NCBI GenBank assembly: GCA_023151185.1
Contig: JAKLJL010000001.1
Location: forward strand, 359,306 to 423,305
Direction: 5' to 3'
From: Bacteroidota bacterium
GTDB lineage: Bacteria > Bacteroidota > JABWAT01
Length of the DNA stretch: 64,000 nucleotides
In this document: piece by piece, positions 28,085-41,887 of the stretch
Position numbering within the stretch: position 1 is the stretch's first letter
Layout of the letters: each line of letters opens with the position of its first letter
Translations under genes and position numbers: made by a program
Notes under the pieces: generated by a model
Databases searched by the model: none
What the model was told of the DNA's origin: nothing
What the model saw: only the letters and a program-made list of their open reading frames with translations

Positions 28085-28108
28085 TTGTCTGTGGCGATTT
28101 ACAATGAC

Positions 28109-28242
28109 CGCTAACGGTTTACGTATTGGCGATGGTGGGGCATTTGAAAAACGTCAACTCAACATTTGCACAAATGCACAATAGAATTACAAATGTTGAG
28201 TTTACCACTGTCAGCCCCACTATTGCCAATACGATGTTAGCG
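28109..28242 (-). repeat. attC-like site 2, about 134 bp
   Basis: CGCTAAC...GTTAGCG termini with internal palindromic arms. The TAA stop of the upstream gene lies inside the inverse core. Confidence 0.85.
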
Positions 28243-29160
28243 GCTGGCACTCTTCGCTTTCTTTTGTGGTTTGTCAACAAGCCATTCTAAATGTCTGTGC
28301 ATTGCATTGAAAACTCTTTCAGGAACTGCAATTTGTTCATAATACTTCTTAATTTCTTCTGCATTCTCGTCTGGTTGTGTCATTAATTCTGCAAGTTCAT
28401 CAAAGAATTTCAAAGTCTTTTTGTTTGTCATAGAGTTGTTTGGTCTTGGCATTCCACTCCAAGCATCCCACTGTAAAAGTTCCTGCTTTTGCATAGAAGC
28501 AACGTCTTTTACAAGATTACCTGCGATAAACCAAAGCCCACGCATTTCAGGCTGAAATATTCCAAATTTTTGTGCGTCAAGTTTACCTTGCCTGCATAAA
28601 AGCCAACTTTCAGCAGGTCTAAAAAACTTGTCGTTTGGAACGTCAAATACATTATGTTTAATTCCTAAATTTTTAATCCAAACGTTGTCAAACTGTGGGT
28701 CAACTATAATCCAACGCTTTTCTTTTTCGTTCCAATATTCACAAACGGAATGGTCTTCATAAAACCCTGCATTAAAATAGTTGCCAAATCCATAGCGCAT
28801 TCTTGCAGGTATTTCCTTAGCCCGTAAAAAACCTGTCAAGAGTTTAGAAAAGTGATGGCAAACTCCAACTATTTTTTTGTCGGAAGGTCTTGGTTTTTCA
28901 AACACAGAATTGTCAAATTCTAAAATTTTGTCAAGTAACTTATCAAAGTGTCTTATGTGAGCTTCATTTTCAATTCGCACTTCGTCAAGTTCGATGTTAT
29001 AAAACTCTGTTGCAATAAACATATGAATTGAAAGTCCTTGAACAATTTCTGCTAATTTTATAATATCGTTTGGAAGTTGTTGGACTGCCTTTTTGTGCTG
29101 CCCACTTTCAGTAAATTGTCCTGCCGTAGCAAAAAATGTATGTAAAGGTTTTTCTGTCAT
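28237..29160 (-). CDS. Transglutaminase-like domain protein (cassette)
   Basis: Cys-His-Asp triad: GVCHHF, DHSVCEYW, VDPQ. Confidence 0.85.
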   Translation of the reverse strand: MTEKPLHTFFATAGQFTESGQHKKAVQQLPNDIIKLAEIVQGLSIHMFIATEFYNIELDEVRIENEAHIRHFDKLLDKILEFDNSVFEKPRPSDKKIVGVCHHFSKLLTGFLRAKEIPARMRYGFGNYFNAGFYEDHSVCEYWNEKEKRWIIVDPQFDNVWIKNLGIKHNVFDVPNDKFFRPAESWLLCRQGKLDAQKFGIFQPEMRGLWFIAGNLVKDVASMQKQELLQWDAWSGMPRPNNSMTNKKTLKFFDELAELMTQPDENAEEIKKYYEQIAVPERVFNAMHRHLEWLVDKPQKKAKSASR

Positions 29161-29203
29161 ATTTAATAACTCTCAGTTGTTGTATGCTGTCTCTTATGCT
29201 TGC

Positions 29204-29296
29204 CGCTAACGGGCCGGCGATAAAACAAGTTGCCGAAGGCAATTTGCCCGAAGGGCGTAGTGACCGAAGGGAACGAAGTTTTATTGCCTGTTGGGC
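29204..29296 (-). repeat. attC-like site 1, about 93 bp, different sequence family
   Basis: On the minus strand GCCCAAC...GTTAGCG; arms GGCGATAAAAC / GTTTTATTGCC; internal hairpins TTGCCGAAGGCAA and GCCCGAAGGGC. Confidence 0.82.
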
Positions 29297-29531
29297 GCTG
29301 TTAAATGGCGCGTAACCACAGCGTTTCTTTTCCCGGCCGATTCTCTTCTCTATTTGCATTGAGCGGCACTCATTAAGGGGAGTTGGTTGATTCTCTTTAT
29401 TTTCAATTACCCCAATCTATTCCATCAAAACCAAGAGACCTTATTTTTCGCCTTTAAGAACTTAGTATTCCCAAGTTATAGATCAGCATAATAAAACCGT
29501 AATCCATCTTGAAATGGTTGTCAATTACAAA

Positions 29532-30350
29532 TTAGCAATTTAACATCCCAAGCACTTTTAATGCGTCACTTAAAGCTCTTACATCATGCGTACGGATGTA
29601 ATCCACACCCATATAGCTTATATAAATTTCAGCAGCCAGGGTCGCTGGCGTTCGCTCGTTGACTCCTCGCCCAACAATAGTTCCTAAAAAAGATTTCCGA
29701 GAAACCGAAACAAGAATTGGTAATTTAAAGTATTCTTTTACTCGAAAAATATTTTTCAAAACATATATTGACGTTTCTGGGTTAGAGCCTAAGAAGAAAC
29801 CCATCCCTGGGTCTAAAATAATTCTTTCGGATGAAACGCCTGAATTTTGAAGTGAATTTATTCGTTGCGAAAAGAAATCAATTATTCCATTAAATATATT
29901 TTCGGGAACAGTTTCGATTACTTGGGCTTTCCCAAGCCGCTGTATGGAATGCATAACAATGAGTTTGCAATTAGATTCTGCCAATTCAGGATATAATTCT
30001 GCGTATGGAAACCCTTGAATGTCATTTAAATAGTGGACATTCTTTTTTAAAAAATATTTTTGAACTTCGGGTTTGAATGAATCAACAGAAACTGAAATAT
30101 TTTGAGAATGCAATTTGTCGATGACATCATTTAAACGGATTATTTCCTCATGAGGCTTTACTTCTTTTGATTCAGGATTACTGGAAGCGGCTCCTACATC
30201 AATTATGTCAGCGCCATCCTTAACAAGTAGAAGTGATTTCTCTATAGCTTTATCATAATTTAAATAAAGGCCGCCATCTGAAAAGCTGTCTTCAGTAATG
30301 TTTACTACACCTAGTATTGTAGGCTTTTTTAATTTCATATGTTTTTTCAC
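29532..30350 (-). CDS. Sul-type (Sul3-like) dihydropteroate synthase, putatively sulfonamide-insensitive
   Basis: NITEDSFSDGG, NDIQGFPY, MHSIQRLG, DPGMGFFLGSNPETS, SRKSFLG and RTHDV motifs; alternative ATG start at 30338. Confidence 0.9.
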   Translation of the reverse strand: MKKHMKLKKPTILGVVNITEDSFSDGGLYLNYDKAIEKSLLLVKDGADIIDVGAASSNPESKEVKPHEEIIRLNDVIDKLHSQNISVSVDSFKPEVQKYFLKKNVHYLNDIQGFPYAELYPELAESNCKLIVMHSIQRLGKAQVIETVPENIFNGIIDFFSQRINSLQNSGVSSERIILDPGMGFFLGSNPETSIYVLKNIFRVKEYFKLPILVSVSRKSFLGTIVGRGVNERTPATLAAEIYISYMGVDYIRTHDVRALSDALKVLGMLNC

Positions 30351-30502
30351 TTTAATTGCCTTTTCTATTCTGCTCTGTCTGTGGTTTTATTTCATATCTT
30401 TTTAATTTAATTCGCGGATTATTGTTTCCCTAAACTGTGCCGCTCGTCTTTTGTTTTTATATTTCTCGGCCGGGCTATTTATTTAACGCGCCATTTAATT
30501 GC

Positions 30503-30540
30503 GCCCAACTCGTTTATATAAGCCCCTTTTATATCCATAT
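30503..30540 (-). other. Putative attI-like recombination site at the head of the cassette array
   Basis: Minus strand reads GGGGCTTATATAAACGAG/TTGGGC. The core GTTGGGC is complementary to the first cassette's inverse core, with no attC-type palindrome upstream of it. Confidence 0.55.
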
Positions 30541-30741
30541 CCTGCTATATTAGGAGGATATGAGAGATTTTGTGCTCCTTATTTTGTACTAATATCTGGC
30601 CTTTTACCATTAAGCGCAATACAGGAAACCCCTTAATTTTCGGGGAAAAAGGACCTTAGTTTTAGGTTGTTTTATACCTTAGAAGACCTAAGGTGCCAGC
30701 CCGGCAGGCACACTCGGCGTCGGTTCACTGAACAATCCCTA

Positions 30742-31032
30742 TTCAACAGTCATCGTCGTATCAAATTGATAAGCTGGCCTCTGTTTATCAGTCATCGTCG
30801 TATCAAATTGATAAGCTGGCCTGAGTTCAACAGTCATCATCGTATCAAAATGATAAGCTAGCCTCTGCTTATCAGTCATTGTCCTATCAAAATGATAAGC
30901 TGGCCTCTGTTTGTCAGTCATCATCGAATCAAATTGATAAACTGGCCTCTGTTGAACAGTCATTGTCGTATCAAATTGATAAACTGGCCTGAGTTAAACA
31001 GCGATCACCGTATCAAATTGATAAGCCAGCCT
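30742..31032. repeat. Tandem repeat, 7 x 42 bp, consensus CAGTCATCGTCGTATCAAATTGATAAGCTGGCCTCTGTTnAn
   Basis: The TATCAAA(T/A)TGATA core starts at 30759, 30801, 30843, 30885, 30927, 30969 and 31011, an exact 42-bp period. Confidence 0.93.
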
Positions 31033-32605: not shown

Positions 32606-33008
32606 CACGATCAGGTCACTTTCAGTTAACGGCCGGTGAACACCGGCAAATATAGGCAATTACGGGCAAAATGGAAATGAAAGGCCCCGTCCTGTCTGCC
32701 GGTTCTGAAAAGTCAGGTGAGGCCGGAAGCACCCGAAAAGGGGCCATTCTGACCAGTGACGGAAACCAGTTGCTGCGGGGGGTGGGTATCCGTCAGATTT
32801 TCTGAAACTCTTTGCGCCCGAAACGGTGTTCAGGTCCTGCAGCCGGCCAGACTTTGGTTAAACTTATCCTTGAATATTTAGGTAATTATCTCGATACTGT
32901 TAAAAAAGTAAAAAAAATTCTCGTTACTTGTTGTATTATGAACTTAACAGGATTAAATTCACCTTCTTTTTGTGACAAAAGTTGCGCAAAACAACGGAAC
33001 AGGAGACT

Positions 33009-33377
33009 ATGAAACTACTCATCGTTGACGACTCAAGCATCATGCGGCGGGCCATTCAGAAGTATCTGGATGAAAACCGGATTGAAGTCGTCGGGACAGC
33101 AGGGAACGGGCTTGAAGCGATAGAAGTCTTTAAAAAAACTGACCCGGATCTGGTAACCATGGATATTACCATGCCCGAAATGGATGGGCTGACCTGCCTG
33201 CAGGAACTGTTGAAAATTAAACCCGGCACCAAAATCATGGTGATAACCGCCCTGACCGATAATGCAACCGGGCTTAGAGCACTGAAACTGGGAGCCAGGA
33301 ATTTTCTTGGAAAACCCTTTACTCCCGAAAAACTGAACGAAGCATTCCTAAAACTGATCGAGGGGCCAAAGAGATGA
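33009..33377 (+). CDS. CheY-like single-domain response regulator
   Basis: IVDDS, TMDITMPEMDG, ITA and KPF motifs; AGGAG RBS before the ATG at 33009. Confidence 0.92.
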   Translation: MKLLIVDDSSIMRRAIQKYLDENRIEVVGTAGNGLEAIEVFKKTDPDLVTMDITMPEMDGLTCLQELLKIKPGTKIMVITALTDNATGLRALKLGARNFLGKPFTPEKLNEAFLKLIEGPKR

Positions 33378-33820
33378 CGGATAAAGAACTGCAGGTATTT
33401 CTGGAAGGTACAGTCAATTATTTCCATGAAGTTTCGGGGACACCGGCTGCGATGGGAGTTCCCTATATTAAAGAGACTCAGGATGAAGTTTCTCTGGATC
33501 TGACCGGCGCCATCGGGATTTCAGGAAATAAAAAGGGCGTGATCTACATCACCTGTCCCTCTCTGATGGTAAAAGAACTGGTGGGTATCATTCTGGGTGA
33601 TGGGAATCCGGATTCCGGTTCACTCTGCGATATGACCGGTGAAATCGCCAACACCATTGCCGGAAATGCCCGGCAGGTCTTCGGTGCCAATTTTATGATT
33701 TCTGTTCCCATTATTATTGAAGGCAAGCCCATTCACCTGAAAGTTGCTGCCCCTACCTTTGTCATCCCGATTACCTGGAGATCTCATAAATCATTCCTTG
33801 TTGTCGGAATCGAATCCTGA
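33374..33820 (+). CDS. cheX: CheX-family phosphatase
   Basis: TGAIGISG...GEIANTIAGN (ExxN motif)...ISVP. Confidence 0.88.
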   Translation: MTDKELQVFLEGTVNYFHEVSGTPAAMGVPYIKETQDEVSLDLTGAIGISGNKKGVIYITCPSLMVKELVGIILGDGNPDSGSLCDMTGEIANTIAGNARQVFGANFMISVPIIIEGKPIHLKVAAPTFVIPITWRSHKSFLVVGIES

Positions 33821-33841
33821 TTTTCCCCCGGAGAAACTGAA

Positions 33842-36800
33842 ATGGAAAAATCGCTGATTGATGTTATGTGGGTCCTTGTTACCGCGGGACTCGTTTTTGT
33901 AATGCAACCCGGATTTGCCTGTCTGGAATCGGGGCTGACCCGGTCGAAGAACAGTATTAATGTGGCGGTGAAGAATGTAACGGATGCCATGATTGCCCTG
34001 ATCCTGTTCTGGTTTGTTGGGTTTGGGGTTATGTTCGGTGTGACCGAGGCGGGTTGGATCGGTACTACTGAGTTTATGATTCCGTTCACTGAAAGCTCCT
34101 GGCATGTTGCCTTTTTCCTGTTCCAGGCCATGTTTGTTGCTACTGCAGCCACCATTGTTTCGGGTGCAGTTGCCGAACGGATGAAATTTGAAGCCTATCT
34201 GATTATGACCGCCCTGATTTCGGCGGTGATTTATCCGCTTTTCGGGCATTGGGCCTGGAACGGATCCATGTCGGATACCTACTCCGGCTGGCTGGGGGCC
34301 ATGGGGTTCAGAGACTTTGCCGGGTCAACCGTCGTTCACAGTATCGGCGGCTGGGCTTCACTTGCTGCACTGGTTCTGATCGGACCCCGTACGGGCCGGT
34401 TTAATGAGCAGGGAGTTCCCCGCCAAATACCCGGCAGTAACATTCCGCTGGCTGCATTGGGTGTTCTGCTGCTGTGGTTCGGATGGTTCGGGTTTAACGG
34501 CGGGTCGACACTCGGCCTGACTGAACGGGTACCCATGATTATCGTGAATACATTTCTGGCAGGTGCTGCCGGCGGGCTATCCGGTATTGCAATGGGTTAC
34601 ATTGCCAACCGGAAAGTGATTTCGGTGGATCTGATTTTTAACGGATCGCTGGCCGGGCTTGTTTCGGTAACCGCAAGTGCAAACGTCATTTCTCCGCTTT
34701 CAGCACTGCTTATCGGTATCATTGCCGGGCCTGTTTTCTATTCTGTCCACCGGCTTCTGCTGAAATTTAAAATTGATGATGCCGTAGATGCCGTCCCCGT
34801 TCACCTGGGTGGTGGAATCTGGGGAACACTGGCCGTTGCCATTTTTGCCGATCCGGCTGTGCTCGGGACCGGACTGGGTTTTGCAGACCAGCTTGGGGTT
34901 CAGGTGCTGGGTATTGCTGTGGCTGGTGTCTGGACTTTTGCACTTGTTTTCATCATTCTCTGGATTGTTAATAAACTGATCAAACTCAGAGTTTCAGAGG
35001 AAGATGAACACATTGGACTGAATGTTTCTGAACACGGAGCAACCACCGAAATTCTCGATTTATTCATCGCTATGGATCAGCAGGCGAAAACCGGAGATAT
35101 GAGTTTACGGGTCCCGGTCGAGCCGTTTACTGAAGTTGGTCAGATTGCCAACCGGTATAACCGGGTGATGGAGGCTCTGGAACGGGCCATCCGGAAAACG
35201 GAAGCCATTGTTACAACCGCACTTGATGGTATTATCACCTTCACGCCGGACCAGTATCAAATCCTGACGGTAAATCCCGGCGGACAGGCCATGTTTAAAC
35301 TTGCCGAAAAAGATCTGACAGGAACTTCTCTTATCCGGTTGTTTGATCACGAAAATGCCGGATATAAGGAATTCAATGAATTCCGTGCCGCCGAACTGTT
35401 CAGACAGGTCGAGCAAACCGGCACTCCGGTTGAACTTGTCGGCAAACGGGCTGACGGAACTGTGTTCCCGATGGAAGTGATTGTAACGAAGGCCGATCTG
35501 GGATTTGAGTCGTTTTACACCGGTATGTTCCGGGATATAACCGAACGGAAAGAGGCCGAAGCAGCCATTCTTGCCGCCAAAAAAGAAACCGACGATATTC
35601 TCTACAATATCAATGAAGGAATTTTTCTTCTGAATGAGAAGTTTGAAATCGGTTCGCAGCATTCACTTGCACTCAGAAAAATTTTCCGCCGTCAGGAAAT
35701 GTCGCAACTGAACCTGCTGAGGCTGTTTTCCAAACTGGTTCCTTCCAAAACCTACCAGTCCATTCAGGATTACCTTGAACTGATGTTCCAGCTTGATATT
35801 GATGAAGATATCGTGAATAATCTGAATCCGCTGAAGCAGATCGAGGTGAATTTTGAAGAAGAAAACGGACAGTTCAGCACCCAGTATCTCCAGTTCAAAT
35901 TCAGCCGGATTTACCATGGGGCCAGAGTCAGCCACCTGATGACAACCGTTTCGGACGTTTCTGAACAGGTTCTGCTGGCCCGTGAACTGAAGGCCAGTGA
36001 AGAACGGACCAAAAACCAGATGTCCCTGCTGTTCAATATTCTTCATATCGATCCGCTGCAGCTAAAACCGTTTGTGGAAGAGTCGGATGAGGCCGTCCAT
36101 AAAATCAAATCAACCCTGAAGGCAGCCGCAGACAAGGCCATTGCCGATGATTATTATCTTCTGCTGACCGATATTTACCGGATTGTCCATAATATCAAGG
36201 GAAATGCCAGTATTCTGGACCTGAAGTTCTTTGCAGAATCTGCACATGAACTGGAAGATATGATCCGTGATGTTCAGTCAAAGCCATCCATCAAGGGAGA
36301 GGATTTTATCACCCTGCTCTTTAAAATTTCGGATCTTGAAGCAAATATAGAGGATATTAAATCACTCGTTTCCCGGCTGATGACCTTCCAGAACGCTGCA
36401 CGGAGCCAGCAAGCCGAAAGTGAAGCACCGGCTGCATCACCCAAAACACCCGACCGCCCGGCAGATCTGGTGATCAGCCAGCTTACAGATGCCATCCGGA
36501 AGCTAAGCAGCGGTCTGAATAAACAGGTCGACTTCAATACTGCCCGGTTTGATGCCTCGGCAGTACATGAAAGTCAGGTGTCCCTGGTCCGGGATGTTCT
36601 CATCCAACTGATGCGGAACTCACTGGTACACGGAATTGAATCACCCGAAGACCGGTCCAGATCTGGGAAACCGGCAACCGGTTATATTGAGGTTACAACT
36701 TCGGTTACCGAGGAACCGGGTTTTCTTTCCATTAAACTCAGAGATGACGGCCGTGGGCTTCAGATTGAAAAAATCAGGCAAAAAGCCATCTCGATGGGAA

Positions 36801-37024
36801 AATGGAATGAAGAACAACTTAAAGCCATGCCGGCAGGTCAGGTTGTAAAACTGATTTTTGAACCTGGGTTTTCTACCGCAGATGAAGTTACGATGGATGC
36901 AGGAAGAGGCGTTGGGATGGATCTCATCCGGAAGAATGTGACCCAGGCCGGAGGTAAAATATCTCTGGCTTCCGGCGCCGGGAAATTCTGCGAATTCACA
37001 GTAAAACTTCCATTGAAATCCTGA
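33842..37024 (+). CDS. Ammonium transporter-HAMP-PAS-HPt-HATPase fusion (Amt-sensor CheA-like kinase without CheW domain)
   Basis: Amt motifs MQPGFACLESG, SGAVAER, DFAGSTVVH, WFGWFGFNGGS and DDAVDAVPVH. PAS ends in RDITERK. HPt is RIVHNIKGNAS. CheA-type catalytic motifs RNSLVHGIE, DDGRGL, IFEPGFST and GRGVGMD. Confidence 0.9.
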   Translation: MEKSLIDVMWVLVTAGLVFVMQPGFACLESGLTRSKNSINVAVKNVTDAMIALILFWFVGFGVMFGVTEAGWIGTTEFMIPFTESSWHVAFFLFQAMFVATAATIVSGAVAERMKFEAYLIMTALISAVIYPLFGHWAWNGSMSDTYSGWLGAMGFRDFAGSTVVHSIGGWASLAALVLIGPRTGRFNEQGVPRQIPGSNIPLAALGVLLLWFGWFGFNGGSTLGLTERVPMIIVNTFLAGAAGGLSGIAMGYIANRKVISVDLIFNGSLAGLVSVTASANVISPLSALLIGIIAGPVFYSVHRLLLKFKIDDAVDAVPVHLGGGIWGTLAVAIFADPAVLGTGLGFADQLGVQVLGIAVAGVWTFALVFIILWIVNKLIKLRVSEEDEHIGLNVSEHGATTEILDLFIAMDQQAKTGDMSLRVPVEPFTEVGQIANRYNRVMEALERAIRKTEAIVTTALDGIITFTPDQYQILTVNPGGQAMFKLAEKDLTGTSLIRLFDHENAGYKEFNEFRAAELFRQVEQTGTPVELVGKRADGTVFPMEVIVTKADLGFESFYTGMFRDITERKEAEAAILAAKKETDDILYNINEGIFLLNEKFEIGSQHSLALRKIFRRQEMSQLNLLRLFSKLVPSKTYQSIQDYLELMFQLDIDEDIVNNLNPLKQIEVNFEEENGQFSTQYLQFKFSRIYHGARVSHLMTTVSDVSEQVLLARELKASEERTKNQMSLLFNILHIDPLQLKPFVEESDEAVHKIKSTLKAAADKAIADDYYLLLTDIYRIVHNIKGNASILDLKFFAESAHELEDMIRDVQSKPSIKGEDFITLLFKISDLEANIEDIKSLVSRLMTFQNAARSQQAESEAPAASPKTPDRPADLVISQLTDAIRKLSSGLNKQVDFNTARFDASAVHESQVSLVRDVLIQLMRNSLVHGIESPEDRSRSGKPATGYIEVTTSVTEEPGFLSIKLRDDGRGLQIEKIRQKAISMGKWNEEQLKAMPAGQVVKLIFEPGFSTADEVTMDAGRGVGMDLIRKNVTQAGGKISLASGAGKFCEFTVKLPLKS

Positions 37025-37031
37025 AGGAAAA

Positions 37032-38096
37032 ATGACACGGATAAAAATTCTTGCCTTTGACGGAAACAAATACAACCTTTTGGCACTTCAGGGCATTTTT
37101 GCCAGAGAGGAGTTTGAGTTCCGTTCAACCAGTTCAAGTTTTGAAATCCCCAAAATTCTGGAAACCTGGGTGCCTGATTATTTGATCATGGATGATGGCC
37201 TTCACGATGGGAAAGTCCTGGATCTGATTGAAGAAGTCAGTTCCCTTCAGGCAATGAAATCTGCTTCCATTATCCTCCAGGTTGATAAACTGAACGATAA
37301 ACTGTTCTATGATTATCTGCGGGCAGGGGTAACGGAATTCATCAGAAAACCGGTTGTTGGCACTTACCTTGTCCACAAGATCAACCTGCATTATTCCGGG
37401 CAGCACAGCCAGTCGAAGGCCAGAGACCTTACAGGCAAAGTGGAACGGATGTCTGAGTTTGTGAAGAAGTACTTTTCTGATGAACTGGTCGATCAGCTAA
37501 CCAGCCAGTCGGGAACAGTTGAACTGAAAGGAAGCCAGCAGGTCGCCACGATTATGAATCTGCATATTATCGGGCTGGACGTGGTTGCAGAAAATCAGGA
37601 CCCGAGAACCCTGGCTGACTTCCTGAATGAGGTTTTTACCGACCTGATGGATCTGATCTACGGAAACGGCGGTTCGGTGAACAAACTTCTTGCTGATGGA
37701 CTGATTGCCACATTCGGAGTCCCGGTTGCCGCTGAAAAGGATGCCTTTAAAGCTGCCAAATGTGCCCTTGAAATTGTTGATTACCTTCAGACCATCAATG
37801 ATGTCCGGCCAAAATTCATCAAACAGCCGTTATCTCTTGCCATCGGGCTTTCGACCGGAAAAGTTTTTGCCGGACTGATCGGCTCGGTAAGGAGGCTTGA
37901 GTTTTCTGTGCTGGGAGAGGCGGTTACTCTGGCTGATCAGATGAAAAGTTACGGTGAACTGAGAGGAATCCCGGTTCTGATTGATGATAAAACCATGAAT
38001 GCGATCGGCGTTCCGCAAAAAACACTCGAAGTTTCCATGCCGGCCGGTGCCCGTCCGTTTAACGTGGGTGTCTTTCAGCTCACACAGTTGCTGTAA
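37032..38096 (+). CDS. Receiver domain plus degenerate class III adenylate/guanylate cyclase domain
   Basis: Receiver (LIMD, FIRKP). Cyclase fold GGSVNKLLADGLIATFGVP, IGLSTGKVFAGLIGS, FSVLGEAV, with catalytic residues substituted. Confidence 0.82.
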   Translation: MTRIKILAFDGNKYNLLALQGIFAREEFEFRSTSSSFEIPKILETWVPDYLIMDDGLHDGKVLDLIEEVSSLQAMKSASIILQVDKLNDKLFYDYLRAGVTEFIRKPVVGTYLVHKINLHYSGQHSQSKARDLTGKVERMSEFVKKYFSDELVDQLTSQSGTVELKGSQQVATIMNLHIIGLDVVAENQDPRTLADFLNEVFTDLMDLIYGNGGSVNKLLADGLIATFGVPVAAEKDAFKAAKCALEIVDYLQTINDVRPKFIKQPLSLAIGLSTGKVFAGLIGSVRRLEFSVLGEAVTLADQMKSYGELRGIPVLIDDKTMNAIGVPQKTLEVSMPAGARPFNVGVFQLTQLL

Positions 38097-38114
38097 CCCG
38101 GATGGGGTACAATT

Positions 38115-38142
38115 AAAAAGCCGGATTTTCCGGCTTTTTTTT
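38115..38142. terminator. Bidirectional terminator
   Basis: AAAAAGCCGGA-TT-TTCCGGCTTTTTTTT between convergent genes. Confidence 0.85.
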
Positions 38143-38163
38143 CTCTAAGCAGGGAATGGGTGG

Positions 38164-38448
38164 TCAGGATCCGGCCAGCGGCGATCCGAAAAGTCCGACA
38201 GCAAGTTCTGCCCAGATTATCAAAAGCAGAAGAAGCACGGAAACGGTAAGCAGAATACGGTAGGCCGGCCGTGTCACTTTGGTCAGAACAATGGAAATGG
38301 CCTGTCCGGTGCCTATCAATAAAACTGCAGCGACTGCAAAATCAAGCCAGGACCAGTTTACTTCTGCAGTGAACTGCATGGCGGTGTAGGGAATCAGAAG
38401 TATCAGTGCTGATCCGCCCAGAATAAGTCCCCAATGCCGGGTGTTCAT
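38164..38448 (-). CDS. Small membrane protein
   Basis: Three hydrophobic segments; AMQFTAEVNWS..DF and WAELAVG motifs. Confidence 0.75.
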   Translation of the reverse strand: MNTRHWGLILGGSALILLIPYTAMQFTAEVNWSWLDFAVAAVLLIGTGQAISIVLTKVTRPAYRILLTVSVLLLLLIIWAELAVGLFGSPLAGS

Positions 38449-38467: not shown

Positions 38468-41400
38468 TTACTTCACTAAGATCAATTTCCGCGTCTGTGA
38501 AAGCGTTCCGGCTTCGAACCGGCAGAAATAAACGCCGGACGGGAATTCGGCGGCATCCCACTGTATCAGATGAATTCCCGCAGGAAGAGTTCCGCTGACG
38601 AGTGTTTTCACTTCCTCTCCCAGCACATTATAGAGAGTCAGGCGAATAAAGGCTGCGGTGGGAAGCGAGACGGGGATCCGGGTTACCGGATTGAACGGAT
38701 TGGGATAATTCTGCTCCATCGTGAAGCCGGCAGGTGGTGCTGACCCGTCCTGGATACCGACGGAAGTGCTTTTTTTAACGGTAATTGAGTTGATAGTAAA
38801 CTCGGGGGATTCAATCGCCAGCCTGAGAATCTGCTTTCCTTTTGACAGGGGCACTTTTGCTGATGTAACGTCTTTCCAGAACTGCCAGCCACCGGTTGCC
38901 GGAACCAGTTTTTTTCCTGTGACATTCTGGCCGTTGAATTCAAGGTGATACGCCCCGATTCCGGGAACTGAAGCCGTCCGGACAGTAAGATCATAATCGC
39001 CGGCATCGGCAACTTCTACAGTATATTCCAGCCACTCGCCTGCTGCAGTCCAGCCAACGTCATATCCGCCGCCGGTATCACTGCAGTTTTCAATATCCAC
39101 CCCTTCAGAAGAACGGAAGGGCACACCCTGGTTTTTCGGATCGGCATCATGGTAGGCTGTCCCTTCGCCGCCGAGATCATAATTTTCTGCCTGAATGGTT
39201 CCCGGCAGCAGAACGGGCGTTCCTTTGTAAGGTGTGCCGTTTCCGATAACGGTGATCCGGAGTTCACCTTTACCTGATTTATTCAGGCTGTTGGTGACGG
39301 TCAGTTCAGCGGTGTAAATTCCCGGGGCCGGATAGTCATGGACGGTATCAGCCTGGGAAGATGAGGTTCCGTCGCCAAACTCCCAGTGGTAACTGAGAGG
39401 CAAACCGGACCGGTCAAAACTGGAACTGCCGGAAAAGGAAATCTTCAGCGGGGCCTTGCCGCTTGATACCGACGCCAGCGGAACCGAGACCGGTGCATCT
39501 TTTCCGGCCGGATCGGTATTGTACGAAACCTGCTTCCGGGCAGGAACCATCAGTGAAAATCCGTCCGAAAAATGAACCCGGACCGAATCGGAGCCCGGGT
39601 TCCAGGCCACGTAAGTTTTGATTCCTTTTTCAGTTTCAAAAACGGCAAAGGTTGGGATGTCTGCGAAAATGGTTGTGCTGACTTTTCCGGTTTTAATCAG
39701 ATTTCCGAGCCAGTGGTAAGTGTGAGCCCGGGATTCACCATCAAACGGTTCATAGCCGGGATCAGCATAATACTGGTTCAGAGCTGTTTGCGGATCGGCG
39801 AAGGCGAGATATTGCCAGAATATATCTTTCCATTTCCTGGGAAGGCTTCCTATTTCCTTCGTCATTTCATTGTAATTCTTCATCACATACTCCGGATGGC
39901 GTCCCAGATAAAGAGAACCTCCGGTAAGCGGAAGCAGATTAATTCCATGAATGAATTCCGGGTCAGCACCAAACCAGGTTGAATGCACGCCCTTTCCGCC
40001 CCAGACCATACCCAGAGCTTCATATCCGTAGGCAGCAGGGAACACTGCGTTATCCACATCAAACCAATAGTGTTCAATGGCCGTTCGTTCAGTTGTATAC
40101 AGAAAGATACCCAGATCCCGGATTTCTTTGTTTCCGGTTGCAGATCCCCATAAAATCAGCGAGGTAGCAAAATTCATGGATTCAGAGCTGGATTCTTCAT
40201 TGTTTCCGTCGCCGAAATCACCATGCCCGGCTTCCCAGGAATGTCCGGCATACGGGTCGAAGGCTCTCAGGAAAGGAAAGCGGCCGTCACTGCGGTCCCA
40301 GTTGGCGCAATCCCGGATCAGCAGATCCACCATTCCTCCCCAGTTTCCAGGAGCAGCCCAGGCCGAATCATATTGGGCAACAGTTGAGGCTGCCATAATC
40401 AGATAGCCATAGTGGAAATTGTGGTCGTTCAGTTGATTGTCAGCGCCGTATCCTGAAGGGTAGGCGATCAGGGTATTCCATTTTGAAACGTAGGAAAGTT
40501 CTTCTGCACCGCCGGCAGTCAGCCAGGCTTCGAGCCGTTTCTTTAATTGGGAAAGAAAATAATCACGGGCACCACTGTTTCCCGCCTGGTCGGCAACCGG
40601 CACCAGATTGGCAAACCGGGCCATCAGCTTTCCGTTTTCATAAACCGGGCCGGCCGGAAGGGTTTCTTTTTTCACCTGGTCAAGGTACGAGTTGAGCTGA
40701 GCCGGATTGTAAATCCCTTCATTTGGAAGAGCTGGCAGCACTCCGTTAAATTCAACGGTTGTGGAAAACTCATTGCCGTCGAACACCTTCATCGTGCCAT
40801 GCACCGAGGTATAGGTAAAGGCCGTCAGCGGGTGGGAAGTATTTAGCCACTGGTGGCGGTAAAGCGCTGTTAGTGTAGCCGGGAGGTTTCCGTTTCCGGT
40901 TTCCATAAGGGTTGTGGTCAGGCTGAAGGTTGAATTCAGTTTTGCAGATGCTTCATCATATTGCCAGGACACCTGGCTACCGGTTACAAAGGCATAAGCT
41001 CTTTTCCGGTAAAACTCCAGAGTAGCCGGCGTGTTATCCGGCAGAATTGCAACAGAGAAAAAATTCTTGCCATTCAGGCTGGATTTCAACACGGAGGTTC
41101 CGGTCCAGGCCGAGCCTGCAGGTCCGAAAATACCATAATGCCGCCCGCCGGCAGTCAGCCCGACCACGCCGTTCTGGTTCGACCAGATGACCGGCGTTTC
41201 TTTGACGGTAATTGAGGCGTTTCCGCCGGCAATGGTGAAAAAGACAAAGGGGATTCCATGACCGAAGGTGGCTTTCATTGCCCGGGTTCCTTCCGACCAG
41301 GAGGCCGTAACCGTCCAGTCCCCATAACTGTCCACAAGCGTCTGGGTAGCTTTCAGTCCGTCAACACCGGCGAGAAGCTGCTGCTGATACGGGAACAGAT

Positions 41401-41752
41401 AATCGGCTGCAGCATACACAGGATCTTTGGTGTAGCCGATTCCCAATCCGGCAGATTCGGCCTTGACTACCAGCGGATGAACATAGAGAGTATTAGAAAA
41501 CTGGCTTCCGTAAAACGGAAAGATGAGACTGCTCCAAAAATCATTGGTCTGAACAGGCTGCGAAAAGTCTGGAGATACCTTGGGGGATACCGATGCCCCC
41601 TGAAAGGTTGACGGGCCGACTGCTTTTGGCGGAAGTACAGTCGAATAACTTCCGCTGCCAACCTGGATTTGGGCCTGGATGGTCTTTACAGGGAATGAAA
41701 TCAGACAGGAAAAAAGAATGGCAGAAACGAAGGGATGGGAAGAACTTTTCAT
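38468..41752 (-). CDS. GH81 endo-1,3-beta-glucanase with PKD, CBM6 and T9SS-type C-terminal domain
   Basis: QTNDFWSS, LNDHNFHYGY, GNNEESSSE; PKD WEFGDG; CBM6; QNYPNPFNP tail; start taken at MKSSSH. Confidence 0.9.
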   Translation of the reverse strand: MKSSSHPFVSAILFSCLISFPVKTIQAQIQVGSGSYSTVLPPKAVGPSTFQGASVSPKVSPDFSQPVQTNDFWSSLIFPFYGSQFSNTLYVHPLVVKAESAGLGIGYTKDPVYAAADYLFPYQQQLLAGVDGLKATQTLVDSYGDWTVTASWSEGTRAMKATFGHGIPFVFFTIAGGNASITVKETPVIWSNQNGVVGLTAGGRHYGIFGPAGSAWTGTSVLKSSLNGKNFFSVAILPDNTPATLEFYRKRAYAFVTGSQVSWQYDEASAKLNSTFSLTTTLMETGNGNLPATLTALYRHQWLNTSHPLTAFTYTSVHGTMKVFDGNEFSTTVEFNGVLPALPNEGIYNPAQLNSYLDQVKKETLPAGPVYENGKLMARFANLVPVADQAGNSGARDYFLSQLKKRLEAWLTAGGAEELSYVSKWNTLIAYPSGYGADNQLNDHNFHYGYLIMAASTVAQYDSAWAAPGNWGGMVDLLIRDCANWDRSDGRFPFLRAFDPYAGHSWEAGHGDFGDGNNEESSSESMNFATSLILWGSATGNKEIRDLGIFLYTTERTAIEHYWFDVDNAVFPAAYGYEALGMVWGGKGVHSTWFGADPEFIHGINLLPLTGGSLYLGRHPEYVMKNYNEMTKEIGSLPRKWKDIFWQYLAFADPQTALNQYYADPGYEPFDGESRAHTYHWLGNLIKTGKVSTTIFADIPTFAVFETEKGIKTYVAWNPGSDSVRVHFSDGFSLMVPARKQVSYNTDPAGKDAPVSVPLASVSSGKAPLKISFSGSSSFDRSGLPLSYHWEFGDGTSSSQADTVHDYPAPGIYTAELTVTNSLNKSGKGELRITVIGNGTPYKGTPVLLPGTIQAENYDLGGEGTAYHDADPKNQGVPFRSSEGVDIENCSDTGGGYDVGWTAAGEWLEYTVEVADAGDYDLTVRTASVPGIGAYHLEFNGQNVTGKKLVPATGGWQFWKDVTSAKVPLSKGKQILRLAIESPEFTINSITVKKSTSVGIQDGSAPPAGFTMEQNYPNPFNPVTRIPVSLPTAAFIRLTLYNVLGEEVKTLVSGTLPAGIHLIQWDAAEFPSGVYFCRFEAGTLSQTRKLILVK

Positions 41753-41887
41753 GGGGGATGGCTCCGGATTTACAGGTAGAAAAGGACACAGGAAAAAGGT
41801 AAAGAGAAAGGTAGAGGATAGGCGGGGAATACCCAAATAAAATTCCGGTGAAAGTGCGGGTTGATGGCAGGTTGGGGCTGAAACGGG

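What the first reader, a model, noticed from the sequence alone, without database searches (positions are those of the whole stretch)
33009..38096. Ammonium-transporter-gated CheA-like phosphorelay: CheY + CheX + Amt-HAMP-PAS-HPt-HATPase + receiver-cyclase
Seen: four tightly linked genes ending in one terminator. The 1060-aa protein has a complete Amt domain retaining both pore histidines (STVVH, VPVH) and the Phe gate (FLFQ, WFGFN). It continues with a HAMP-like linker, PAS, a second PAS-like region, HPt (HNIKG) and a CheA-type ATPase. It ends without a CheW domain, and no MCP, CheW, CheR, CheB or GlnK gene is nearby. Known: Amt-sensor fusions have been characterised with a classical histidine kinase (Kuenenia Ks-Amt5) and with a GGDEF domain (Shewanella Sd-Amt1), while CheA normally needs receptor/CheW arrays. 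Inference: a receptor-independent, one-protein ammonium sensor with a class II kinase, a dedicated phosphatase for fast reset and two receiver outputs. I know of no characterised example of this architecture.
Basis: partly seen in the sequence, partly recalled or inferred. Interest (0 to 1): 0.85.

Follow-up and report, generated by a model that had tools for sequence, protein, structure and literature searches.

The report
Ammonium sensor fused to mini-CheA kinase
A sludge bacterium carries a four-gene operon in which an ammonium-receptor-like membrane domain is fused to a stripped-down chemotaxis-type kinase with its own CheY and CheX, a common but unstudied design that could signal ammonium without any chemoreceptor array.

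Summary
Four co-oriented genes end at one hairpin: cheY, cheX, a 1060-aa fusion and a REC-cyclase-like gene. The fusion reads Amt, HAMP-like linker, PAS, PAS-fold domain, Hpt (His783), CheA-type ATP-binding domain. It has no P2, P3 or P5.

It is not unique. The best 120 hits are all Amt+HATPase fusions (113 also Hpt) of about 910 aa, named at most "ammonium transporter"; 17 of 18 organism labels are spirochaetal. cheY-cheX flank the kinase in 17 of 17 loci, including five where GAF, MASE6 or other domains replace Amt.

I read it as a "class III" histidine kinase system (named in 2017; paper not readable here) with an ammonium-receptor-type input. The nearest solved structures are the receptors Sd-Amt1 and Ks-Amt5, and the ammonium-site ligands are kept.

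Particular to this copy:
- an inserted PAS domain;
- a host without flagellar marker genes;
- a REC-cyclase partner that lost three catalytic residues yet is under purifying selection.

This scan found the same design earlier in a spirochaete (e1-1246477). I found no paper or experiment on it. No ammonium response has been shown.

The parts
33009..33377 (+). cheY-like single-domain response regulator (122 aa), with D7, D8, D52, T80 and K102 intact
   Evidence: Pfam Response_reg 105.7 bits. The best solved relatives are chemotaxis CheY proteins 6er7 and 1tmy, E 1e-30 to 1e-29. Residue positions.
33374..33820 (+). cheX-like CheY-P phosphatase (148 aa) with the motif D86-x3-E90-x2-N93
   Evidence: Pfam CheX 58.3 bits against a cut-off of 27. 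Solved CheX relatives 3h4y and 3hm4 at E 5e-10, with the E..N motif aligned. Motif position. It is the only CheX match in the genome.
33842..37024 (+). 1060-aa Amt-fused class-III-type histidine kinase (whole gene)
33866..35044 (+). Amt domain (residues 9-401). It keeps the twin His (H166, H321), the Phe gate (F98, F218), W150, D158 and S222, and the N1/N2 ligands Q22, E29, N45, D48, T104 and S107.
   Evidence: Pfam E 3.7e-118. Best solved relatives: Sd-Amt1 8qj3 at E 4e-120 and Ks-Amt5 6eu6 at E 6e-101, against E. coli AmtB at about 1e-37. Residue conservation in 16 family members.
35045..35218 (+). HAMP-like two-helix linker (residues 402-459), with the conserved RVPVEPFTEVGQIA connector
   Evidence: Aligned to the Sd-Amt1 linker up to residue 451. 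AF2 predicts helices at 402-417 and 431-459. The same linker occurs in Amt-GGDEF/EAL and Amt-HisKA proteins.
35225..35545 (+). PAS domain (residues 462-568). Among 16 aligned family members it is present only in this protein and its two closest relatives.
   Evidence: Pfam PAS_9 at 41.3 bits. It appears as an insertion in alignment A1. The model is of low confidence here.
35618..35956 (+). Family-wide PAS-fold domain (residues 593-705) with no Pfam match
   Evidence: AF2 pLDDT about 85-90. Foldseek matches FixL, DosP and LOV PAS domains at probability 1.00 and E 2e-7 to 1e-5. No Pfam family at E 0.1.
36053..36415 (+). Hpt (P1-like) four-helix bundle, residues 738-858. The phospho-acceptor His783 is encoded at 36188-36190.
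   Evidence: Pfam Hpt 29.1 bits. Aligned to E. coli CheA P1 with the His in register. His783 is invariant in 16 of 16. Codon checked.
36416..36457 (+). 14-residue low-complexity linker in the place where CheA has P2 and P3
   Evidence: AF2 predicts no secondary structure for residues 859-872. No H-kinase_dim match. phmmer against full-length CheA aligns only P1 and P4.
36458..37024 (+). CheA-type ATP-binding domain (P4-like), residues 873-1060. N926, D968/G970/G972 and G1021/G1023/G1025 are invariant. The gene ends here, with no P5/CheW domain.
   Evidence: phmmer to CheA P4 at E 1e-28 to 1e-31. Foldseek to CheA P4 gives TM-score (by target) 0.80-0.91 and rmsd 2.0-3.4 A. NCBIfam CheA models match 873-1058 only. 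Invariant residues.
37032..38096 (+). Degenerate receiver plus degenerate class III cyclase-homology protein (354 aa). REC: D10-G11, D54, Q83, K106. Cyclase: H178 for a metal Asp, D222 kept, T299 for Asn, Q303 for Arg.
   Evidence: Pfam. Alignments to solved cyclases and to partners from other loci. Positions. dN/dS 0.069 against G003.
38115..38139 (+). Terminator-like hairpin (11-bp stem) followed by a T run
   Evidence: and the sequence

Best explanation
The operon encodes a self-contained phosphorelay whose input is ammonium.

Proposed mechanism:
1. The Amt-like domain acts as a membrane receptor. By family rule it is a trimer. It binds NH4+ at the internal two-ion N1/N2 site described for Sd-Amt1 and Ks-Amt5.
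2. The change passes through a HAMP-like two-helix linker, a lineage-specific PAS domain and a family-wide PAS-fold domain. Either PAS domain could add a cytoplasmic cue.
3. This sets how readily the CheA-type ATP-binding domain phosphorylates His783 of the adjacent Hpt domain. The kinase has no dimerisation domain and no CheW domain. It needs no receptor array and probably acts in cis or around the three-fold axis.
4. The phosphoryl group goes to Asp52 of the CheY-like protein. CheX removes it quickly.
5. The fourth protein descends from a receiver-regulated nucleotide cyclase that is intact in some relatives. Here it is probably non-catalytic and serves as a docking or sink module.

The target of CheY-P in this host is unknown and is probably not a flagellar motor.

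Shown here: gene order, domains, residue conservation, family distribution, purifying selection.
Inferred: ammonium control, phosphotransfer, oligomeric state, output.
For: 1. Input domain. The best solved relatives of residues 1-460 are the two proven ammonium receptors: Sd-Amt1 8qj3/8qj4/8qpf at E 4e-120 (alignment 3-451, including its HAMP linker) and Ks-Amt5 6eu6 at E 6e-101. Canonical transporters score far lower: Af-Amt1 9e-62, Mep2 about 1e-41 to 3e-44, E. coli AmtB about 1e-37 (PDB codes tied to the papers).

2. Ammonium site. The Sd-Amt1 N1/N2 ligands Gln22, Glu29, Asn45, Asp48, Thr104 and Ser107 (passages) are present at the same numbers. In 16 aligned family members, E29, D48, T104 and S107 are kept in 16 of 16, and Q22 and N45 in 14 of 16.

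3. Input slot. The same PAS-fold/Hpt/ATP-binding module carries GAF or MASE6 at its N terminus in 3 of the 5 non-Amt relatives examined (L114, L121, L128; L119 and L127 gave no N-terminal Pfam match). The N-terminal position is therefore the interchangeable input slot.

4. Kinase competence. His783, N926, D968/G970/G972 and G1021/G1023/G1025 are invariant in 16 of 16. The P4 fold matches CheA P4 with a TM-score by target of up to 0.91.

5. Partners. cheY and cheX lie beside the kinase in 17 of 17 loci examined: the window, G003, and 15 of the 18 spirochaetal matches. The CheY and CheX catalytic residues are intact.

6. Selection. Against G003, dN/dS is 0.013 (cheY), 0.021 (cheX), 0.052 (kinase) and 0.069 (gene 4), with dS saturated.

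7. Spare transporter. The genome has a separate 514-aa Amt with a signal peptide, so the fusion need not be the uptake route.

8. Habitat. Runs labelled activated sludge, sludge, wastewater or bioreactor from 10 studies other than the possible source hold at least half of the sampled words.
Against: - No experiment bears on any step.
- All pore residues of a working transporter are also intact, so transport is not excluded.
- The published receptor signature QX6EX15NX2D[F/T]X54-60TX2[S/T] is not met literally. Position 49 is Ala here; across the 16 members it is Ala in 3, Leu in 12 and Phe in 1.
- Two family members have Arg22 and Val45.
- The two cytoplasmic PAS domains could be the real sensors.
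- The genome gave no FliM, FliG_C or Flagellin_N match at 97.7% completeness. Its best PilT-family match is below the cut-off (173 against 319 bits). No obvious CheY target is therefore in view.
- The receiver and the cyclase of gene 4 are degenerate.
- Contigs from RNA libraries touch all four genes, but they do not prove transcription or co-transcription.
Confidence: 0.62

Rival explanations
1. Transceptor. The Amt domain still transports ammonium and signals flux, rather than mere binding, to the kinase. The protein would be both an uptake route and a sensor.
For: The twin His, the Phe gate, W150, D158 and S222 are kept in 16 of 16 family members. The Sd-Amt1 paper places N1/N2-bearing plant AMT1 transporters in the same cluster and proposes dual transport and receptor roles (passage).
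Against: Ks-Amt5 has all the conserved motifs yet does not complete translocation (passage). The genome has a second, separate Amt.
Confidence: 0.2
2. Reverse wiring. The cytoplasmic PAS domains sense an internal cue such as redox or nitrogen status. The kinase module, or its phosphorylation state, then gates ammonium transport through the Amt domain. This would replace GlnK.
For: No P-II gene lies next to either Amt. The two P-II genes are at C11:973043 and C1:32493. The fusion has two PAS domains.
Against: In the relatives, GAF or MASE6 domains, which have no transport function, occupy the same N-terminal slot. The conserved partners are a CheY and a CheX, which make an output pathway rather than a transporter regulator.
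Confidence: 0.08
3. Array-independent ammonium taxis. CheY-P from this kinase steers motility, giving attraction to or avoidance of ammonium.
For: The CheY is closest to bona fide chemotaxis CheYs. A dedicated CheX suggests a fast reset. Most carriers with an organism label are spirochaetes (17 of 18 labels).
Against: This genome gave no FliM, FliG_C or Flagellin_N match, and no PilT match above the cut-off. No adaptation genes (cheR, cheB) are in the operon. The idea may hold in spirochaetes and fail here.
Confidence: 0.2
4. Decaying or chimeric locus without function.
For: Gene 4 has lost catalytic residues. The operon is absent from the two same-genus genomes searched.
Against: All four frames are intact. 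dN/dS is 0.013-0.069 against a relative that is 84-94% identical. An independent contig covers the whole locus. Five sequences from several sources form the 98% cluster.
Confidence: 0.02

Closest known systems
Sd-Amt1 of Shewanella denitrificans (ammonium receptor; PDB 8QJ3, 8QJ4, 8QPF; PMC11152129, abstract and passages read)
   Same: It is the best solved relative (E 4e-120 over residues 3-451). It has the same N1/N2 ligands at the same residue numbers. It has the same Amt-then-HAMP-like-linker layout, with a fused cytoplasmic transducer.
   Different: The Sd-Amt1 transducer is a GGDEF diguanylate cyclase that must dimerise. Here the transducer is PAS, PAS-fold, Hpt and a CheA-type ATP-binding domain, with separate CheY and CheX. 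Position 49 is Phe in Sd-Amt1 and Ala here.
Ks-Amt5 of 'Candidatus Kuenenia stuttgartiensis' (ammonium sensor histidine kinase; PDB 6EU6; PMC5764959, passages read)
   Same: An Amt-like receptor fused to a histidine kinase. It is the second-best solved relative (E 6e-101). It is a trimeric sensor carrying kinase modules.
   Different: Ks-Amt5 has a classical DHp+CA (class I) kinase and no HAMP or PAS domain. Here the phospho-acceptor His sits on an Hpt domain, the ATP-binding domain is of CheA type, and there is no dimerisation domain.
Class III histidine kinases (HKIII; Adebali, Petukh, Reznik, Tishkov, Upadhyay and Zhulin, J Bacteriol 2017). I saw only the title, in a reference list, and one citing passage (PMC6501615). 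The features of the class are recalled from the abstract.
   Same: A sensor domain fused to Hpt and a CheA-type kinase domain; no dimerisation domain; no CheW domain; a single-domain response regulator and a CheX encoded alongside. All of these were seen here.
   Different: I could not check whether that paper lists Amt as an input domain. Its proposed link to pilT and type IV pili is not clearly met here (best PilT-family match 173 bits, cut-off 319). Most carriers found here are spirochaetes.
Canonical CheA-CheW-MCP chemosensory kinase with CheY and CheX (for example Thermotoga and spirochaetes; CheA survey PMC10782961, passages read)
   Same: An Hpt with the His in register with CheA His48; a P4 fold and sequence (30-33% identity to T. 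maritima P4); a CheY-type receiver and a CheX-type phosphatase.
   Different: It lacks P3 and P5. That survey finds both in every CheA, as part of a four-domain core. It carries its own membrane sensor instead of using receptors.
Earlier finding of this scan, e1-1246477 (a spirochaete operon: Amt fused to a CheA-type kinase, with CheY, CheX and a PAS-adenylate cyclase)
   Same: The same gene order and the same fusion. I saw this operon type myself in 10 spirochaetal loci.
   Different: The present copy has an extra PAS domain. It sits in a Bacteroidota-lineage genome without flagellar markers. Its cyclase partner is degenerate.

Membership tests
Amt/Mep/Rh ammonium transporter family (PF00909) | Full-length match to the family profile above its cut-off | tested here: met
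   395.2 bits against a cut-off of 23.2, profile positions 1-397 of 399. TIGR00836 413.6 bits against a cut-off of 343.3.
Amt/Mep/Rh ammonium transporter family (PF00909) | Twin-His pair, Phe gate and the periplasmic binding residues (E. coli AmtB H168/H318, F107/F215, W148, S219, D160; this numbering is recalled) | tested here: met
   H166/H321, F98/F218, W150, S222 and D158 are each present in 16 of 16 aligned family members.
Amt/Mep/Rh ammonium transporter family (PF00909) | Homotrimer in the membrane; actual NH4+/NH3 translocation | not testable with these tools
   Three copies exceed the size limit of the complex predictor.
Amt-like ammonium receptors (AmR; Sd-Amt1/Ks-Amt5 class, PMC11152129) | N1/N2 ligand set (Gln22, Glu29, Asn45, Asp48, Thr104, Ser107 in Sd-Amt1) | tested here: met
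   All six are present at the same positions. In 16 family members, E29, D48, T104 and S107 are kept in 16 of 16, and Q22 and N45 in 14 of 16.
Amt-like ammonium receptors (AmR; Sd-Amt1/Ks-Amt5 class, PMC11152129) | Literal signature QX6EX15NX2D[F/T]X54-60TX2[S/T] | tested here: not met
   The strict pattern fails only at the F/T position, which is Ala49 here. The relaxed pattern matches residues 22-107. In Sd-Amt1 Phe49 is not a ligand; in Ks-Amt5 the equivalent Thr51 is (passage).
Amt-like ammonium receptors (AmR; Sd-Amt1/Ks-Amt5 class, PMC11152129) | C-terminally fused transducer module; ammonium-dependent activation | tested here: inconclusive
   The fused transducer is present. Ammonium dependence cannot be tested by computation.
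CheA (class II chemotaxis histidine kinase) | P1 Hpt domain with a phospho-acceptor His | tested here: met
   Pfam Hpt 29.1 bits against 24.6. His783 aligns with the His of E. coli CheA P1.
CheA (class II chemotaxis histidine kinase) | P3 dimerisation domain (H-kinase_dim), a core domain found in all CheAs surveyed (PMC10782961) | tested here: not met
   No Pfam match. phmmer to full-length CheA aligns P1 and P4 only. The AF2 model leaves 14 unstructured residues between the last Hpt helix and the first P4 helix. Caveat: the survey notes that HMMER often misses P3, so the structural argument carries the weight.
CheA (class II chemotaxis histidine kinase) | P4 ATP-binding domain of CheA type | tested here: met
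   E 1e-28 to 1e-31 to CheA P4 chains. Foldseek TM-score by target up to 0.91, rmsd 2.0 A.
CheA (class II chemotaxis histidine kinase) | P5 CheW-like domain, found in 100% of the CheAs surveyed | tested here: not met
   The protein ends two residues after the HATPase_c match, and there is no CheW match. The three other CheA-type P4 matches in the genome each have a CheW match in the same open frame.
Class III histidine kinase system (HKIII; features recalled from the 2017 abstract) | Own sensory domain, plus Hpt, plus a CheA-type kinase domain, without a dimerisation domain | tested here: met
Class III histidine kinase system (HKIII; features recalled from the 2017 abstract) | A single-domain response regulator and a CheX encoded alongside | tested here: met
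   Seen in the window and in 17 of 17 loci examined.
Class III histidine kinase system (HKIII; features recalled from the 2017 abstract) | pilT present in every carrier genome (also stated in the citing passage) | tested here: inconclusive
   The best TIGR01420 match is 173.4 bits against a cut-off of 319.1, covering profile positions 2-268 of 343.
CheX (PF13690) CheY-P phosphatase | Family match, and the active-site E-x2-N motif (motif recalled from the CheC/CheX literature) | tested here: met
   58.3 bits against 27. D86-x3-E90-x2-N93 is aligned with the same motif in solved CheX chains.
Class III nucleotidyl cyclase (gene 4) | Family match above the cut-off | tested here: met
   60.9 bits against 21.9.
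Class III nucleotidyl cyclase (gene 4) | Two metal-binding Asp residues, and the transition-state Asn and Arg (roles recalled) | tested here: not met
   H178 replaces the first Asp, T299 the Asn and Q303 the Arg; D222 is kept. The three spirochaetal partners aligned keep D, N and R. G003 shares the losses (R, T, Q).
Receiver domain (gene 4, N terminus) | Acidic pair, phospho-acceptor Asp, Thr/Ser and Lys | tested here: inconclusive
   D54 and K106 are kept. The acidic pair reads D10-G11 and the Thr/Ser position is Q83. Pfam gives 24.8 bits, below the 30.2 cut-off.

The most novel reading that the evidence does not exclude
An Amt trimer carrying three kinases that have no dimerisation domain would be a three-fold symmetric signalling unit. 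It would avoid the trimer/dimer mismatch that puzzled the Ks-Amt5 and Sd-Amt1 studies. It would also replace the whole MCP-CheW-CheA array with one polypeptide. In this host, which has no flagellar marker genes, CheY-P would act on a non-flagellar target, with the catalytically dead receiver-cyclase kept as its docking scaffold.
Probability: 0.2. Interest if true: 0.8.

Novelty: new variant of a known kind. Interest (0 to 1): 0.6.

Why it matters
Only two ammonium receptors of the Amt type have been studied. Both raise the question of how a trimeric sensor drives a transducer that must dimerise. This family joins the same kind of sensor to a kinase with no dimerisation domain, so it offers a natural test of that question.

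It would also give the little-studied class III histidine kinases a defined, cheap ligand, with CheY and CheX partners of textbook type. That makes a full reconstitution realistic: ligand, kinase, receiver, phosphatase.

The carriers are spirochaetes and sludge bacteria from ammonium-rich habitats. Public records name these proteins at most 'ammonium transporter', which hides a signalling system from genome-based nitrogen-cycle models.

Tried and rejected
1. The genome-collection scan with the family alignment picked generic Amt patterns. It returned mostly ordinary transporters and Amt-GGDEF/EAL or Amt-HisKA sensors. It was useful as contrast but not for neighbourhoods.

2. An 'empty site' test in same-genus genomes was uninformative. 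In G002 the homologues of the two flanking genes lie about 30 kb apart. I therefore make no claim about insertion or transfer.

3. Only the quick tree of Amt domains finished. Sensor-fused Amts form one clade (SH-aLRT 96). The window pair sits beside a Desulfocurvus Amt-PAS-GGDEF-EAL protein (support 89) and not inside the main spirochaetal clade. That is unresolved and taken only as a hint of domain shuffling.

4. Contigs from RNA libraries (3 studies) lie on parts of all four genes. None bridges a gene junction by 31 letters, and none covers 33822-35317. Such libraries can also hold DNA. I make no claim of expression or co-transcription.

5. Papers that I could not open: Adebali et al. 2017, tried by PMC id, PubMed id and DOI, and Tremblay and Hallenbeck 2009. 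Fig. 7B and the supplements of PMC11152129, which list the domain organisations of fused Amts, were not visible. The architecture may be listed there.

6. Literature searches that found no description of an Amt fused to a CheA-type or Hpt kinase. The words CheA, Hpt and chemotaxis occur 0 times in both Amt-receptor papers. 'Ammonium' and 'Amt' occur 0 times in the CheA survey.

7. Rejected readings: assembly chimera, decaying operon, and a flagellar output in this host.

8. The complex predictor was not used. No binding claim here depends on it.

Full report
**What is in the sequence**

Four genes lie head to tail on the + strand.
- cheY, 33009-33377. Its ATG is preceded by GGAG.
- cheX, 33374-33820. 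It overlaps cheY by the four bases ATGA.
- A 1060-codon gene, 33842-37024, after a 21-nt gap.
- A 354-codon gene, 37032-38096, after a 7-nt gap.

An 11-bp hairpin followed by a T run sits at 38115-38139. The number of terminator-like sites in the region is at chance level (7 found, 6.8 expected). This one is the strongest, and it lies 18 nt after the last stop codon of the operon.

Pfam and NCBIfam give these domains:
- cheY: a full receiver (105.7 bits).
- cheX: CheX (58.3 bits, cut-off 27).
- The large protein: Ammonium_transp at residues 9-401 (E 3.7e-118), PAS_9 at 462-568, Hpt at 744-821, HATPase_c at 919-1059. CheA models match only residues 873-1058.
- Gene 4: a class III cyclase domain (60.9 bits) and a receiver below its cut-off (24.8 against 30.2 bits).

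**Anatomy of the large protein**

An AlphaFold2 model of residues 401-1060, built on 52 aligned sequences, has mean pLDDT 79.8. In order, it shows:
- two helices (402-417 and 431-459) around the conserved connector RVPVEPFTEVGQIA;
- the PAS_9 domain, at low confidence;
- a connecting helix;
- a confident second domain at 593-705;
- a four-helix Hpt bundle at 738-858, with His783 on its second helix;
- 14 unstructured residues;
- the ATP-binding domain at 873-1060.

I modelled the second domain alone (pLDDT 80.5). Foldseek matches it to the PAS domains of FixL, DosP and LOV proteins at probability 1.00 and E 2e-7 to 1e-5. Pfam sees nothing there.

The ATP-binding domain superposes on CheA P4 with a TM-score by target of 0.80-0.91 and rmsd 2.0-3.4 A, at 30-33% identity. 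phmmer against full-length E. coli CheA aligns P1 (with the His in register) and P4 only.

There is no room for P2 or for the two-helix P3 dimerisation domain. The protein ends without a CheW domain. HMMER is known to miss P3 in many CheAs (passage), so I rest this point on the model and not on the missing Pfam hit.

**The Amt half is of the receptor kind**

The best solved relatives of residues 1-460 are as follows.

| Solved protein | E-value |
|---|---|
| Sd-Amt1 (8qj3, 8qj4, 8qpf) | 4e-120, alignment 3-451 |
| Ks-Amt5 (6eu6) | 6e-101 |
| Af-Amt1 | 9e-62 |
| Mep2 | about 1e-41 to 3e-44 |
| E. coli AmtB | about 1e-37 |

The Sd-Amt1 alignment runs through the region which that paper calls a HAMP domain. 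The PDB codes are tied to the two papers.

The Sd-Amt1 paper names Gln22, Glu29, Asn45, Asp48, Thr104 and Ser107 as the residues around the two internal ammonium sites (passages). All six stand at the same numbers here. In 16 aligned family members, four of them are invariant, and Q22 and N45 are kept in 14 of 16.

The literal signature proposed in that paper fails at one position. The F/T after Asp48 is Ala here. Across the 16 members it is Ala in 3, Leu in 12 and Phe in 1. In Sd-Amt1 that Phe is not a ligand.

The pore residues of a working transporter are also all present. Sequence alone therefore cannot separate a receptor from a transporting receptor. Ks-Amt5 likewise keeps them and does not complete transport (passage).

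**It is a family, not a singleton**

A search of 5.8 billion proteins scored 8000 candidates of 583-1855 residues, and 4267 of them passed E 0.001. The best 120 are all Amt+HATPase fusions (113 of them also carry a precomputed Hpt match). Apart from two close relatives of 1052 and 1055 aa, they are 880-946 aa long. Where a source names them at all, all but two ('hypothetical protein') are called 'ammonium transporter'. Of the 18 rows that carry an organism label, 17 are spirochaetal and one reads 'bacterium'.

Only two clusters, at 98% and 87% identity, share the extra PAS domain. In the 16-sequence alignment it appears as a clean insertion between the linker and the PAS-fold domain.

Distribution in genomes:
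- In 41 genomes of the window's own phylum sample, G000 included, the full-length protein was found only in G000 and in G003, which is the same family but another genus. It was not found in the two same-genus genomes.
- In 301 spirochaetal genomes, 16 had the PAS-fold/Hpt/P4 module at E 1e-45 or better. Only four candidates per genome were scored, so this is a lower bound.

A profile of the PAS-fold plus Hpt part finds 1144 representatives at E 1e-30 among 1.84 billion. They have many different lengths, and the module starts anywhere from residue 1 to about residue 1200.

**The partners are constant**

I fetched 15 of the 18 spirochaetal matches; the three left out lie at contig ends. To these I added the window and G003.

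| Feature | Count |
|---|---|
| Amt-fused kinases among the 17 loci | 12 |
| Kinases with another N terminus | 5 (GAF in L114; MASE6 in L121 and L128; no match in L119 and L127) |
| Loci with a cheY-like and a cheX-like gene beside the kinase | 17 of 17 |
| Loci with a cyclase-domain gene directly downstream | 6 of 17 (window, G003, L114, L118, L120, L125) |

In 15 of the 17 loci cheY and cheX lie directly upstream of the kinase. In one they lie downstream (L119). In one a diacylglycerol-kinase-like gene sits between them and the kinase (L127). My first, greedy ORF pick missed several of these small genes, and an unfiltered pass recovered them.

The downstream cyclase gene is fronted by a receiver, a PAS domain or both. 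L119 has one five genes upstream instead.

The fixed unit is therefore cheY, cheX and a kinase with an exchangeable N-terminal sensor.

**What kind of system this is**

A survey of CheA finds Hpt, P3, P4 and P5 in every CheA (abstract and passages). This protein fails two of those four and is not a CheA.

I could not open that paper. I saw its title in a reference list, and one citing passage. The passage says that such kinases also occur in genomes without chemotaxis genes and always together with a type IV pilus marker.

As I recall its abstract, the class is defined by its own sensor domains, the absence of a dimerisation domain, a single-domain response regulator and CheX. All of these are met here. 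The pilT link is not clearly met: the best PilT-family match scores 173 bits against a cut-off of 319.

I therefore file the kinase as class III in design, with an ammonium-receptor-type Amt as its input.

**What is particular to this copy**

*The host.* A close relative's protein is labelled Bacteroidota at NCBI. A neighbouring gene carries a type IX secretion sorting domain. Earlier notes call the genome's kin Ignavibacteria-type, which I did not check.

The genome is 97.7% complete. It gave no match to FliM, FliG_C or Flagellin_N. It does have 8 CheW-domain and 8 MCP matches, and three other CheA-type kinases that each have a CheW domain in the same open frame. One such cluster ends about 33.5 kb upstream of cheY, just before the window starts. 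The operon's CheX is the only CheX match in the genome.

*The partner.* Gene 4 is degenerate in both halves.
- In the receiver, the acidic pair reads D10-G11 and the Thr/Ser position is Q83. D54 and K106 remain.
- In the cyclase domain, H178 stands for the first metal-binding Asp, T299 for the transition-state Asn and Q303 for the Arg. D222 remains. The alignments to solved cyclases are and the positions. The roles of these residues are recalled from the class III cyclase literature.

G003 shares the losses. The three spirochaetal partners that I aligned keep D, N and R and have a canonical receiver or PAS domain.

The gene is nonetheless under purifying selection. By my own Nei-Gojobori script, dN/dS against G003 is 0.069. 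The other three genes give 0.013, 0.021 and 0.052. dS is saturated, so the ratios are rough, but pN is 0.03-0.09 against pS of 0.63-0.74.

The genome has six other cyclase-domain matches.

**Is the locus real, and where does it live**

An independent 7920-nt contig from a bioreactor metagenome of another study covers 32700-38300 in one piece, with 65 differences and one extra T in the terminator run. Runs labelled activated sludge, sludge, wastewater or bioreactor from 10 studies other than the possible source hold at least half of the sampled words.

Contigs from three RNA libraries lie on parts of all four genes. That does not prove transcription.

**How it most likely works**

See the best explanation. 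The points that I regard as shown are the anatomy, the conservation of catalytic and ligand residues, the fixed partners and the purifying selection.

The points that I infer are these:
- ammonium binding at N1/N2 is the signal;
- it is passed through the HAMP-like linker, as proposed for Sd-Amt1;
- His783 is phosphorylated by the adjacent ATP-binding domain;
- CheY Asp52 is the acceptor, and CheX resets it.

Both receptor papers stress that a trimeric sensor is awkward for transducers that must dimerise. A kinase without a dimerisation domain would not have that problem. This is the most interesting idea that the family offers, and it is untested.

**Novelty**

Both parent kinds are known: Amt-type ammonium receptors with fused transducers, and class III kinases with CheY and CheX. 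In ten full-text searches and in the papers I could read, I found no description of their combination.

Three sources that could list it were not visible to me: the 2017 class III paper, the 2009 Amt-sensor review, and Fig. 7B with the supplements of the Sd-Amt1 paper.

This scan had already met the same design in a spirochaete (e1-1246477). I rate it a new variant of known kinds.

Noticed in passing
window 29532-30350 (- strand), within a low-G+C stretch at about 28000-31000: A 272-aa dihydropteroate synthase ORF scores best against the Sul3 model of sulfonamide-resistant DHPS. It gets 351.9 bits, below that model's cut-off of 475 but above the general DHPS cut-off of 162.6. It lies in DNA of 35-38% G+C, against 47% for the window.
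   Followed up: partly
G000 contigs C11:349554-358828, C20 and C24 (outside the window): The genome has 8 MCP matches, 8 CheW-domain matches and three CheA-type kinases with CheW domains. It has no FliM, FliG_C or Flagellin_N match and no PilT match above the cut-off. What these chemosensory systems control is open.
   Followed up: partly
P0129 (4858 aa) and P0130 (1950 aa): Two giant proteins match the PAS-fold/Hpt profile in 33 and 15 separate stretches. They look like long arrays of this module.
   Followed up: no
L114, L119, L121, L127 and L128 (spirochaetal loci): The same kinase module, with cheY and cheX, carries GAF or MASE6 (or no recognised domain) in place of Amt. In L127 a diacylglycerol-kinase-like gene sits between cheX and the kinase.
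   Followed up: partly
L129:2556-4100 (G000:C11, second Amt) and the P-II genes at C11:973043 and C1:32493: The genome's ordinary 514-aa Amt, which has a signal peptide, has no P-II gene beside it. Both P-II genes lie elsewhere. In the quick tree this Amt has a very long branch.
   Followed up: no
window 33842-35581, compared with L001 (Desulfocurvus Amt-PAS-GGDEF-EAL): The Amt, linker and first PAS part of the window protein is 55% identical over residues 1-596 to an Amt-PAS-GGDEF-EAL protein. It groups with that protein in the quick tree (support 89) and not with the main spirochaetal Amt-kinase clade. This hints that the sensor half and the kinase half were joined by domain shuffling.
   Followed up: partly
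window 38468-41836 (- strand): A 1122-aa secreted protein with a type IX secretion sorting domain (Por_Secre_tail, 37.8 bits) lies next to the operon on the opposite strand. Its homologues in the two same-genus genomes each carry one internal TAA.
   Followed up: no
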